Shown here piece after piece: positions 17,184 through 18,117 of a DNA stretch of 64,000 bases. A program made the position numbers and the translations under genes. The stretch comes from the human T2T-CHM13v2.0 reference genome, Homo sapiens, in assembly GCF_009914755.1 (NCBI RefSeq), contig NC_060925.1; one strand, 5' to 3'. The number at the start of each line of letters is the position of its first letter. Within the stretch, counting starts at the first letter, position 1. The notes under the pieces were generated by a model that ran no database searches, was not told the DNA's origin, and saw only the letters and a program-made list of their open reading frames with translations.

Positions 17184-17498
17184 TTTTTTTTTTTTTTTGA
17201 GATGTCGCTTCACTCTTGTCCAGGCTGGAGTGCAGTGGCGCGATCCCGGCCCACCGCAACCTCTGCCTCCCAGGTTCAAGGGATTTACCTGCCCCCGCCT
17301 CCAGAGCAGCTGGGACCACAGGCGTGTACCACCATGCCTGGACAGTTTGTTTGTTTGTTTGTTTGTTTTTGTATTTTTAGTAGAGACTGGGCTTTGCCAC
17401 CTTGTCCAGGCTAGTCTCGAATCCCCGACTTCAGGCTATCCGCCAGCCTTGGCCTCCCAAAGTTCTGGGACCACAGGCATGACCCACCATGCCTGGCA
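17184..17498 (-). mobile_element. AluS (Sq/Sp/Sz-like), antisense, with heavy T>C (+ strand) skew
   Basis: Poly-T, dimeric Alu with (gttt)n middle; e.g. gggaccaca for gggattaca twice, gagcagc for gagtagc, gatcccggcccac for gatctcggctcac. Confidence 0.95.
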
Positions 17499-17816
17499 AT
17501 AATTGGTATCTCTTAACTCTCATTCTAGTTTTCTAGAATCAAAATTGTTAAGAATAAGGAGTTGAGACAAAGGTAGAAGAATCCACACTATAGTGTTCCA
17601 AACTGTTTTCAAAACTAACTCATTCCTTTGGTTCAAAGAGAAAAAAGGTTACCTCCTTTTAAAATCTAATATGAGTATGGCTGATGGAAATTAGACCAGT
17701 CTTACAAATTATAAACCTACAGTAGCAACCATAAAATTTATGCTGTGCTAGGAAATGATAGAGCTAACCCTAGTGTGCTGTTTAGCATACAGAAAGTACT
17801 CCAAAATAATGACTGG

Positions 17817-18117
17817 GGCTGGGCGTGGTGGATCACACCTGCAATCCCAGCACCTCGGGAGGCCGAGGCAGGTGGATTATTTGAGTCAGGAGTTCGAGAC
17901 CAGCCTGGCCAATACAGCAAAACCTCGTCTCTACTAAAAATGTAAAAATTAGCCAGGTGTGGTGGCGTGAGCCTGCAATCCCAGCCACTTGGGAGGCTGA
18001 GACAAGAGAATTGTCCAAACCCGGGAGGCAGAGGCTGCAGCAAGCCAAGACCACGCCACTGCACTCCCGCCTGTCGGACAGAGCGAGACTGTGTCTCAAT
18101 AAATAAATAAATAAAAA
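17817..18117 (+). mobile_element. AluS (Sx/Sz-like), sense, with heavy T>C (+ strand) skew
   Basis: Full dimer with (aata)n tail; cctgcaatc for cctgtaatc twice, cacctcggg for cactttggg, gaggctgcagcaagcc for gaggttgcagtgagcc. Confidence 0.95.

What the first reader, a model, noticed from the sequence alone, without database searches (positions are those of the whole stretch)
17184..18117. Fossilised ADAR A-to-I hyper-editing: an inverted Alu pair with ~27 same-strand T>C changes fixed in genomic DNA
Seen: two oppositely oriented AluS elements lie ~320 bp apart. Read by eye against the AluS consensus, the antisense copy has T>C at about 17246, 17251, (17255, possibly a subfamily variant), 17294, 17307, 17316, 17317, 17343, 17392, 17400, 17423, 17426, 17436, 17471 and 17472. 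The sense copy has T>C at 17842, 17854, 17856, 17915, 17918, 17976, 17986, 18015, 18016, 18035, 18041 and 18051. Reciprocal A>G changes number only about 1-2 per element. The skew follows the genomic strand, not the Alu orientation, so it is not a subfamily signature or CpG decay. The other Alus in the window (29630, 31663, 43447, 52548, 59211) do not show it. Established: ADAR1/2 hyper-edit closely spaced inverted Alus in 3'UTRs, and reverse transcriptase reads inosine as G. Inference: an RNA with the minus-strand sequence formed an Alu-Alu hairpin, was hyper-edited, and was then retrotransposed. That would leave a permanent DNA record of ancient germline RNA editing.
Basis: partly seen in the sequence, partly recalled or inferred. 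Interest (0 to 1): 0.92.

Follow-up and report, generated by a model that had tools for sequence, protein, structure and literature searches.

The report
RNA editing fossil in ZDHHC20 retrocopy
This stretch is an ancient reverse-transcribed copy of the tail of the ZDHHC20 messenger RNA, and its two facing Alu repeats keep about 25 A-to-G changes that RNA editing made before the copy was inserted, so it preserves RNA editing from tens of millions of years ago.

Summary
The observation and the interpretation both hold. Against a consensus of 76 other Alus, the two Alus carry 26 plus-strand T>C and 4 A>G. Five other window Alus show 0-3.

The source was found. Window 16953-22280 is a retrocopy of the last exon (3'UTR) of a DHHC gene on chr13, which published primers and a PDB match identify as ZDHHC20. 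It ends at the parent's AATAAA with an A-rich tail. It has a textbook 5' inversion (twin priming) and two later repeat insertions.

The parent Alus have T at 25 of the C sites. Outside the Alus, W versus the parent is symmetric: T>C 36, A>G 39 in 3102 columns.

The edited strand is the mRNA strand, as shown independently by the poly(A) end and by splicing. A second, spliced ZDHHC20 pseudogene at chr13:68.21 Mb carries its own skew (41 versus 13). It shares 12 sites with the window copy.

This same 3'UTR Alu is an ADAR1 substrate today (PMC9113518).

Target-site duplications and the ADAR neighbour motif were not demonstrable. Primate orthologues could not be checked.

The parts
16953..19007 (-). 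Inverted 5' segment of the retrocopy, first part. It equals the parent last exon chr13:20,568,340-20,570,369 in parent + orientation, so the RNA sense is the window's minus strand. It holds the Alu pair.
   Evidence: BLAST to both chr13 paralogs at 84-86%. The left boundary is at 16953; window 16863-16953 is no more like the parent than shuffles (194 of 300 shuffles reach the score).
17184..17497 (-). Alu, antisense on + (a sense Alu in the RNA). It carries 14 parent-T to C changes on +. Four are shared with copy A: 17255, 17307, 17317, 17472. Ten are private: 17208, 17246, 17251, 17271, 17294, 17392, 17400, 17426, 17436, 17471.
17498..17810 (-). Unique spacer, the loop of the hairpin. It shows no T>C excess: W-private T>C 2, A>G 6.
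17811..18117 (+). Alu, sense on + (antisense in the RNA). It carries 11 parent-T to C changes. Eight are shared with copy A: 17842, 17854, 17915, 17918, 17976, 18016, 18035, 18051. Three are private: 17856, 17986, 18015. Its parental counterpart is bracketed by the published ZDHHC20 editing-assay primers.
   Evidence: PMC9113518 passages.
19008..20199 (+). Later insertion of a dispersed ~1.2-kb LTR-type repeat (TG...CA ends). It has a 4-bp duplication TTAC at 19004-19007 and 20200-20203. It carries exon 1 of lncRNA LOC107985242.
   Evidence: Absent from both paralogs. At least 4095 genomic candidates, with full-length matches at 86-90%. Ends and duplication. The family name LTR12/HERV9 is recalled, not tested.
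20200..20508 (-). Inverted 5' segment, second part (parent chr13:20,570,370-20,570,666). Its right end is the 5'-most RNA position copied.
   Evidence: 89-91% identity to the paralogs; junction.
20509..20833 (+). Direct 3' segment, first part. [quoted passage not shown] The inversion junction at 20508|20509 has AAT microhomology.
   Evidence: 90% identity on the minus strand of the parent.
20834..21186 (+). Later insertion of a young dispersed repeat with an A-rich 3' end. It is probably a 5'-truncated L1 3' end; that name is recalled, not tested.
   Evidence: Absent from both paralogs. At least 4642 genomic candidates at 93-95% identity.
21187..22280 (+). Direct 3' segment, second part. [quoted passage not shown] It ends just after AATAAA (22271-22276), at the same parental base where copy A ends.
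   Evidence: 92% identity; three-way alignment of the 3' ends.
22281..22325 (+). Decayed A-rich tail (53% A).

Best explanation
Window 16953-22325 is an L1-type retrocopy of the 3' 3.75 kb of the ZDHHC20 mRNA. The parent is the last exon at T2T chr13:20,566,915-20,570,987, minus strand.

Proposed sequence of events:
1. Two young AluS elements in opposite orientation in the parental 3'UTR paired into a roughly 300-bp RNA duplex.
2. ADAR deaminated about 25 adenosines in that duplex on one mRNA molecule.
3. The L1 reverse transcriptase read each inosine as G.
4. Twin priming inserted the cDNA on chr1 with its 5' part inverted. As a result the Alu pair lies in parental + orientation and the edits read as T>C on the window's + strand.
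5. An LTR and a young repeat inserted into the copy later.

A second mRNA molecule of the same gene was edited independently at about 32 sites, 12 of them the same. It gave the full-length spliced pseudogene at chr13:68,206,792-68,212,236.

Shown here: the paralogy, the parental state at each site, confinement of the skew to the Alus, the RNA strand, the poly(A) end, the inversion, the splicing of the sister copy, and present-day ADAR editing of the same Alu (from papers).

Inferred: that ADAR was the enzyme at the time, that L1 was the machinery, that the event was in the germline, and the age. The age is about 35-45 My, from 4.4-4.9% private divergence and recalled primate substitution rates.
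For: Source and identity
- The spacer has 3 copies in the genome. The unit with both Alus is shared by all three.
- A Pfam DHHC hit lies 5' of copy A as one contiguous block (111 bits, 1 TGA). A split hit lies in the parent gene.
- The 5' part of copy A matches 11 exon blocks on chr13 minus, spread over 83 kb (20653396 to 20570987), at 88-100% identity.
- Its translated DHHC block best matches human DHHC20 in the PDB (2e-41).
- The published ZDHHC20 editing primers match the parent exactly and bracket the 'sense' Alu.

RNA origin
- W and A both stop at the same parental base, 4 nt after AATAAA, and continue A-rich.
- W has an inverted 5' piece and a direct 3' piece whose RNA ends abut within 0-3 nt, with AAT microhomology at the junction.

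Editing signature
- Versus the Alu consensus, + strand T>C/A>G is 26/4 in W, 28/3 in A and 4/8 in the parent.
- Versus the parent, W has T>C 33, A>G 13, C>T 12, G>A 18 in the Alus, and 36/39/41/34 outside. A has 41/13/17/23 in the Alus and 41/35/37/47 outside.
- Fisher test, T>C against all other changes, Alu against non-Alu: p = 0.0025 for W and 0.0005 for A.
- No edit-type change is private to the parent.
- The parental 951-nt RNA folds at -482.6 kcal/mol, with 235 of 331 pairs joining the two Alus.
- The strand on which the changes are A>G is the mRNA strand, as fixed independently by poly(A) and splicing.

Present-day editing
- ADAR knock-down lowers editing at ZDHHC20-A2877, read as T/C from the forward primer (PMC9113518, passages).
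- The same assay is used in PMC12621589 (passages).
- Two ZDHHC20 editing sites 529 nt apart are listed in PMC5532815 (passages and a supplement hit).
Against: - No target-site duplication was found for W or A. The best direct matches between the flanks are no better than shuffles (251 of 300 and 30 of 300 shuffles reach them).
- The ADAR neighbour preference is only a trend. 5' G occurs at 9 of 55 edited versus 23 of 93 unedited adenosines, p = 0.30. For W's 25 sites it is 4 of 25, p = 0.43. 3' G is 9 of 25, p = 0.46.
- Edited adenosines are not more often base-paired in the predicted fold than unedited ones (36 of 55 versus 55 of 93).
- W's private skew taken alone is modest: 11 versus 5 in the Alus against 19 versus 27 outside, Fisher p = 0.08. 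About half of W's edits are shared with copy A.
- Homology to the parent ends only 4 nt after AATAAA, which is closer than usual cleavage sites. W and A also share a T at the start of the tail. This is unexplained.
- Two TG-to-CA double changes are shared by W and A. They fit common ancestry more easily than parallel CpG decay.
Confidence: 0.88

Rival explanations
1. One editing event only. A single edited RNA gave one retrocopy. W and A both descend from it by further copying, and their private T>C come from further rounds of editing.
For: - 12 edit sites are shared, against 5.4 expected if sites were hit at random (P = 0.0011).
- Two shared TG-to-CA double changes and three shared CpG transitions.
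- A shared T at the start of the tails.
- Similar private branch lengths outside the Alus: 134 and 149 changes in 3052 columns.
Against: - Copy A starts in the parent's first exon and is spliced through 11 exon blocks, so it comes from a bona fide ZDHHC20 mRNA.
- W lacks A's 20-21 private edits and A lacks W's 11-13, so neither can be the other's source. A lost intermediate plus three retrotranspositions would be needed.
- A and the parent share derived states that W lacks. There are 6-7 such sites in the Alus, two of them transversions.
- The parent-side branch is the shortest (92 changes).
- ADAR site choice is known to be reproducible (established knowledge), which explains shared hot spots.
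- The small outgroup test was uninformative: W+A 2, W+parent 2, A+parent 0.
Confidence: 0.1
2. DNA-level strand-biased mutation after insertion, with no RNA editing involved. Candidates are transcription-associated asymmetry in the lncRNA intron, GC-biased gene conversion, or error-prone polymerase patches.
For: The Alu pair lies in the first intron of a minus-strand lncRNA (hub table). A>G on the coding strand is the known direction of transcription-associated asymmetry (recalled).
Against: - The skew stops at the Alu borders. The spacer and 2.7 kb of flanking retrocopy in the same intron or locus are symmetric.
- GC-biased conversion would raise A>G as well.
- The same skew, at 12 identical sites, is present in copy A at another locus and is absent from the parent.
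- The lncRNA promoter lies in an LTR that inserted later.
Confidence: 0.03
3. The C states are ancestral, and the parental Alus were later converted back towards the Alu consensus.
For: Where W and A agree against the parent, a three-sequence comparison alone cannot give the direction.
Against: - At all 12 shared sites the parent equals the consensus of 76 unrelated Alus.
- W-only and A-only changes (12-13 and 15-20) cannot be explained by reversion of the parent.
- The changes follow the genomic strand across two oppositely oriented Alus.
- The parent differs from the consensus at 46 and 50 positions of ordinary types, so it was not recently homogenised.
Confidence: 0.02
4. Deamination took place on the RNA:DNA hybrid during reverse transcription rather than on the Alu-Alu dsRNA.
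For: ADARs can act on RNA:DNA hybrids in vitro (recalled, not checked in a paper here).
Against: A hybrid forms along the whole template, yet the excess is confined to the two Alus. Deamination of the cDNA strand would give the opposite strand bias.
Confidence: 0.03

Closest known systems
ADAR1/ADAR2 hyper-editing of inverted-repeat Alu pairs in human 3'UTRs (for example Athanasiadis et al. 2004, PMC526178, seen as a search listing and abstract only; the ZDHHC20 assay in PMC9113518, passages read)
   Same: The substrate is the same: two oppositely oriented Alus about 300 nt apart in one transcript. Changes are clustered, are A-to-G on the RNA strand only, and are confined to the duplex. The parental Alu is an ADAR1-dependent editing target today.
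   Different: Here the changes are in genomic DNA of two retrocopies, not in cDNA reads. The neighbour motif could not be shown with 25-55 sites.
L1-mediated processed pseudogenes with a 5' inversion by twin priming (Ostertag and Kazazian 2001; recalled, not read here)
   Same: The copy ends at the parent's poly(A) signal with an A-rich tail. It is 5' truncated. The inverted 5' piece and the direct 3' piece abut on the RNA, with microhomology at the junction. It lies on another chromosome. The sister copy is intronless.
   Different: Target-site duplications are not recognisable. W contains only last-exon sequence, so splicing cannot be shown for W itself.
APOBEC3 G-to-A editing footprints in genomic retroelements (Carmi, Church and Levanon 2011; Knisbacher and Levanon 2015; both recalled, and the latter is not held)
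   Same: A deaminase footprint is frozen in the genome because an edited intermediate was integrated.
   Different: The enzyme family, substrate and mismatch type all differ: dsRNA before reverse transcription, rather than minus-strand cDNA. The carrier here is a cellular mRNA, not a retroelement.
Plant organelle retroprocessing and RNA-mediated gene transfer, where C-to-U edited mRNAs are reverse transcribed into DNA (recalled)
   Same: The principle is the same: an edited RNA becomes the template of a heritable DNA copy.
   Different: The kingdom, the editing chemistry and the integration mechanism all differ.

Membership tests
L1-type processed retrocopy | Ends at the parental polyadenylation signal and carries a poly(A) remnant. 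| tested here: met
   W and A both stop at parent chr13:20,566,915, 4 nt after AATAAA (window 22271-22276). The tail 22281-22325 is 53% A.
L1-type processed retrocopy | Lacks the introns of the parent. | tested here: inconclusive
   W holds only last-exon sequence. The sister copy A joins 11 exon blocks spread over 83 kb of the parent gene, and the A-parent homology ends at a polypyrimidine-AG acceptor.
L1-type processed retrocopy | Target-site duplications flank the insertion. | tested here: inconclusive
   No direct repeat better than shuffles was found. About 4.4% private divergence and AT-rich flanks may hide one.
L1-type processed retrocopy | 5' truncation or 5' inversion, with the two pieces adjacent on the RNA (twin priming). 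| tested here: met
   The inverted piece is parent 9340-11666 and the direct piece is 9338 down to 7915 (indices within chr13:20,559,001+). The junction has AAT microhomology.
ADAR A-to-I hyper-editing footprint | Clustered A-to-G on one strand only, that strand being the transcript. | tested here: met
   Versus the consensus, 26/4 (W) and 28/3 (A). The RNA strand was fixed independently by the poly(A) end and by splicing.
ADAR A-to-I hyper-editing footprint | Confined to the double-stranded region. | tested here: met
   In the Alus, T>C 33 versus A>G 13. In the non-Alu part, 36 versus 39 in 3102 columns. In the spacer, 2 versus 6. The predicted duplex has 235 pairs between the Alus.
ADAR A-to-I hyper-editing footprint | The unedited template has A at the sites. 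| tested here: met
   The parent has T on + (A in the mRNA) at 25 W sites and 32 A sites. Three further C's are already in the parent and are not counted.
ADAR A-to-I hyper-editing footprint | G depleted 5' of the edited A and enriched 3' of it. | tested here: inconclusive
   5' G is 9/55 versus 23/93, p = 0.30. For W alone, 5' G is 4/25, p = 0.43, and 3' G is 9/25, p = 0.46.
ADAR A-to-I hyper-editing footprint | The same RNA is an ADAR substrate. | tested here: met
   Published primers map to the parent and bracket the Alu. ADAR knock-down lowers editing there (PMC9113518; PMC12621589). Site-by-site overlap was not testable.
GC-biased gene conversion tract | Weak-to-strong changes on both strands (T>C and A>G alike). 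| tested here: not met
   A>G is not raised: 4 versus 26.

The most novel reading that the evidence does not exclude
The two ZDHHC20 retrocopies are independent snapshots of single, heavily inosine-bearing mRNA molecules from an ancestral primate germline or early embryo. They show that hyper-edited inverted-Alu mRNAs are usable templates for L1.

The bolder reading is that editing is what lets reverse transcriptase pass a near-perfect 300-bp hairpin, so retrocopies that contain inverted Alu pairs should be edited as a rule. Here 2 of 2 copies that include the pair are edited. The older copies on chr6 end upstream of it.

If general, retrocopies would give a datable, genome-wide 'palaeo-editome'.
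Probability: 0.25. Interest if true: 0.8.

Novelty: new variant of a known kind. Interest (0 to 1): 0.68.

Why it matters
RNA editing leaves no heritable trace, so nothing is known directly about editing in ancestral germlines. This locus, together with its sister copy and the still-edited parent gene, gives three things.

- It gives a site-resolved record of which adenosines of one dsRNA were edited on two single molecules tens of millions of years ago.
- It gives evidence that inosine-rich mRNAs reach the L1 machinery, although hyper-edited RNAs are commonly described as retained or degraded.
- It offers a simple recipe for finding more such records. Take a retrocopy and its parent, find an inverted repeat, and look for a strand-coherent A>G excess confined to the duplex.

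There is also a practical point. Reads from edited ZDHHC20 mRNA can map better to these G-bearing copies than to the parent, which can distort editing estimates at a widely used ADAR1 reporter site.

Six literature searches found no description of ADAR hyper-editing fixed in processed pseudogenes. A 2016 review states that roles of ADAR editing in Alu evolution had 'not yet been determined' (PMC4982230, passage). The most likely place for prior mention, Knisbacher and Levanon 2015, is not held, so prior description cannot be excluded.

Tried and rejected
- Target-site duplications: exact 8-mers and local alignment of the flanks against shuffles found nothing significant for W or A.
- An apparent extension of homology to 16863 was rejected. 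It is no better than shuffles, and the true left boundary is 16953.
- ADAR neighbour motif and paired-versus-unpaired status of edited adenosines: no significant difference.
- Rooting the W/A/parent tree with the older chr6 ZDHHC20 retrocopies: only about 250 shared columns, and the counts were 2/2/0, so it was uninformative.
- Mapping the published sites onto the parent failed for lack of a coordinate bridge. The sites are A2877 of NM_153251.4 and hg19 chr13:21948578 and 21949107.
  - The supplements of PMC5326813 that are held do not mention ZDHHC20.
  - Those of PMC5532815 gave one further site only.
  - Supplements that were not held or were cut may list more.
- Fetching the whole parent gene failed. 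Its exon structure was read from match coordinates instead.
- Considered and rejected: segmental duplication (poly(A) end, inversion and a spliced sister copy argue against it), GC-biased conversion, transcription-associated asymmetry, and reversion of the parent. See the rival explanations.

Full report
**1. The observation**

The window is human (T2T chr1:193,688,001-193,752,000). Two full-length Alus lie at 17184-17497 (antisense on +) and 17811-18117 (sense on +), 313 bp apart.

I collected 82 full-length Alus. Seven came from the window, 18 from two chr13 regions and 57 from a 200-kb chr19 sample. Partial copies were dropped. I aligned them and took the majority base of the 76 non-focal copies as the reference.

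At the 260 columns not flagged as CpG-like, the antisense Alu has 15 plus-strand T>C and 1 A>G. The sense Alu has 11 and 3. Pooled, that is 26 against 4, with equal opportunities on both strands (p = 6e-5).

Background Alus average 1.7 T>C and 3.3 A>G in Alu-sense orientation. The five other full-length Alus of the window have 0-3 of either type.

The exception is 17316, which is the consensus state. I add 17208 and 17271.

**2. The source**

The 311-bp spacer has exactly two other copies in the genome (3 candidates, all scored). Copy 'A' is at chr13:68.21 Mb and copy 'B' is at chr13:20.57 Mb. All three share both Alus.

B is a gene:
- A Pfam DHHC search of the genome finds a split hit 25 kb away from B on chr13 minus.
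- Its best hit in the whole genome is a contiguous, intronless DHHC block about 400 bp 5' of copy A.
- The 1 kb 5' of copy A matches 11 exon blocks, spread from chr13:20,653,396 to 20,570,987 on the minus strand, at 88-100% identity.
- So A is a spliced processed pseudogene, and B is the last exon (at least 4.07 kb, mostly 3'UTR) of its parent.
- The A-B homology ends at a polypyrimidine-AG acceptor.

The translated DHHC block best matches human DHHC20 among solved structures (2e-41). The ZDHHC20 primers printed in PMC9113518 match B exactly and bracket its 'sense' Alu. The parent is therefore ZDHHC20.

**3. The window copy is a retrocopy**

In parental + orientation, window 16953-19006 plus 20200-20508 equals parent indices 9340-11666.

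Immediately to the right, 20509-20833 plus 21187-22280 equals parent 9338 down to 7915, on the opposite strand, at 90-92% identity.

The copy thus ends at the very base where copy A ends, 4 nt after an AATAAA (window 22271). It continues as an A-rich stretch.

The two pieces abut on the RNA to within 0-3 nt and are joined through an AAT microhomology. This is the arrangement expected from twin priming during L1 reverse transcription. That mechanism is recalled, not read here.

Two blocks absent from both paralogs are later insertions:
- A 1.2-kb LTR-type repeat at 19008-20199, with a 4-bp duplication TTAC.
- A young dispersed repeat at 20834-21186.

Target-site duplications of the retrocopy itself could not be found.

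**4. The skew is an RNA-level footprint**

The parent has T at 25 of W's C sites. Twelve of these are also C in copy A and 13 are private to W. Three further C's (17343, 17423, 18041) are already in the parent and are ordinary Alu mutations.

Copy A has 32 such sites, 12 shared and 20 private. The parent has no private change of this type.

Pairwise against the parent:
- W in the Alus (608 columns): T>C 33, A>G 13, C>T 12, G>A 18.
- W in the rest of the retrocopy (3102 columns): 36, 39, 41, 34.
- A in the Alus: 41, 13, 17, 23.
- A in the rest: 41, 35, 37, 47.

T>C against all other changes, Alu against non-Alu, gives p = 0.0025 (W) and 0.0005 (A). The spacer between the Alus shows no excess.

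The parental RNA over this span (951 nt) is predicted to fold at -482.6 kcal/mol, with 235 of 331 pairs joining the two Alus. No shuffle control was run, because the first attempt timed out.

The strand on which the changes read A>G is the mRNA strand, which is fixed independently by the poly(A) end and by splicing.

The same Alu is edited today:
- ADAR knock-down lowers editing at ZDHHC20-A2877, which is scored as T versus C from the forward primer (PMC9113518, passages).
- PMC12621589 uses the same assay (passages).
- PMC5532815 lists two ZDHHC20 sites 529 nt apart, consistent with one in each Alu.

**5. Results that do not support the reading**

- The ADAR neighbour preference is only a trend: 5' G at 9/55 edited versus 23/93 unedited adenosines, p = 0.30. 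For W it is 4/25, p = 0.43.
- Edited adenosines are not more often paired in the predicted fold.
- W's private skew taken alone is weak: 11 versus 5 in the Alus against 19 versus 27 outside, p = 0.08.
- Homology to the parent ends unusually close to the AATAAA, and W and A share a T at the start of the tail.

**6. One event or two**

W and A share 12 sites, where 5.4 would be expected at random (P = 0.0011). They also share two TG-to-CA double changes, which are edits that created CpGs that then decayed. That could mean a common edited ancestor.

Several points argue against a common ancestor:
- A begins in the parent's first exon and is fully spliced.
- Each copy has a strand-skewed private set that the other lacks.
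- A and the parent share 6-7 derived states in the Alus that W lacks, two of them transversions.
- The parent-side branch is the shortest: 92 against 134 and 149 changes in 3052 non-Alu columns.

An outgroup test with older chr6 ZDHHC20 retrocopies was uninformative. Those copies end at a proximal poly(A) site upstream of the Alu pair.

I favour two independent mRNA molecules that were edited at overlapping hot spots.

**7. Age (inference)**

Private divergence outside the Alus is 4.4% for W and 4.9% for A. With recalled primate substitution rates this suggests roughly 35-45 My, soon after the AluS elements entered the 3'UTR, when the duplex was near-perfect. Primate orthologues could not be examined with these tools.

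**8. Comparison and novelty**

The components are textbook: ADAR editing of inverted Alus, and L1-mediated processed pseudogenes with a 5' inversion. Their combination, a hyper-editing pattern frozen in DNA with the unedited and still-edited parent at hand, was not found in six full-text searches.

A 2016 review says roles of ADAR editing in Alu evolution were 'not yet determined' (PMC4982230). Knisbacher and Levanon 2015 could not be read.

I rate it a new variant of a known kind. It is well supported and of real interest as a datable record of ancient editing, but it is mechanistically expected.

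Noticed in passing
window 19004-19205: Exon 1 of lncRNA LOC107985242 (19008-19205, minus strand) lies wholly inside the later LTR insertion and ends exactly at the LTR edge. [quoted passage not shown] The hyper-edited Alu pair therefore sits in the first intron of an LTR-driven lncRNA.
   Followed up: partly
window 20834-21186: A young dispersed repeat (at least 4642 genomic candidates, 93-95% identity) with an A-rich 3' end inserted into the direct segment. About 14 bp of parental sequence is missing at the site. Family not identified; a truncated L1 3' end is suspected from recall.
   Followed up: partly
window 17346-17370: A (GTTT)n run of about 20 extra bases has expanded in the A-rich linker of the antisense Alu, relative to the Alu consensus.
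   Followed up: no
window 17184-17497: The hub's list of masked repeats includes the sense Alu (17811-18125) but not the equally long antisense Alu. Its divergence (edits plus the microsatellite) may have broken the masking.
   Followed up: no
G000 C6:29582255-29583283, C6:31236273-31237395, C17:65316444-65317070: There are older ZDHHC20-like processed copies (74-84% identity). The chr6 pair ends at a proximal poly(A) site about 546 nt into the last exon, upstream of the Alu pair.
   Followed up: partly
window 17918-17919 and 18016-18017: Two edits turned TG into CG, and both W and A now read CA there. So an editing-created CpG later decayed in both copies, either in parallel or by shared descent.
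   Followed up: partly
G000 C13:20561106-20561393 (L006 2106-2393): An unrelated Alu downstream of ZDHHC20 shows 15 A>G against 3 T>C versus the consensus in Alu-sense orientation, the highest of the 76 background copies. It may be an older subfamily or another footprint.
   Followed up: no
G000 C13, just 3' of copy A's tail (about 68,212,260-68,212,400; L005): A direct repeat of about 38 bp flanks a 60-bp piece that ends in a run of 13 A's, immediately after the tail of copy A. It may be a small secondary insertion or a tandem duplication.
   Followed up: no
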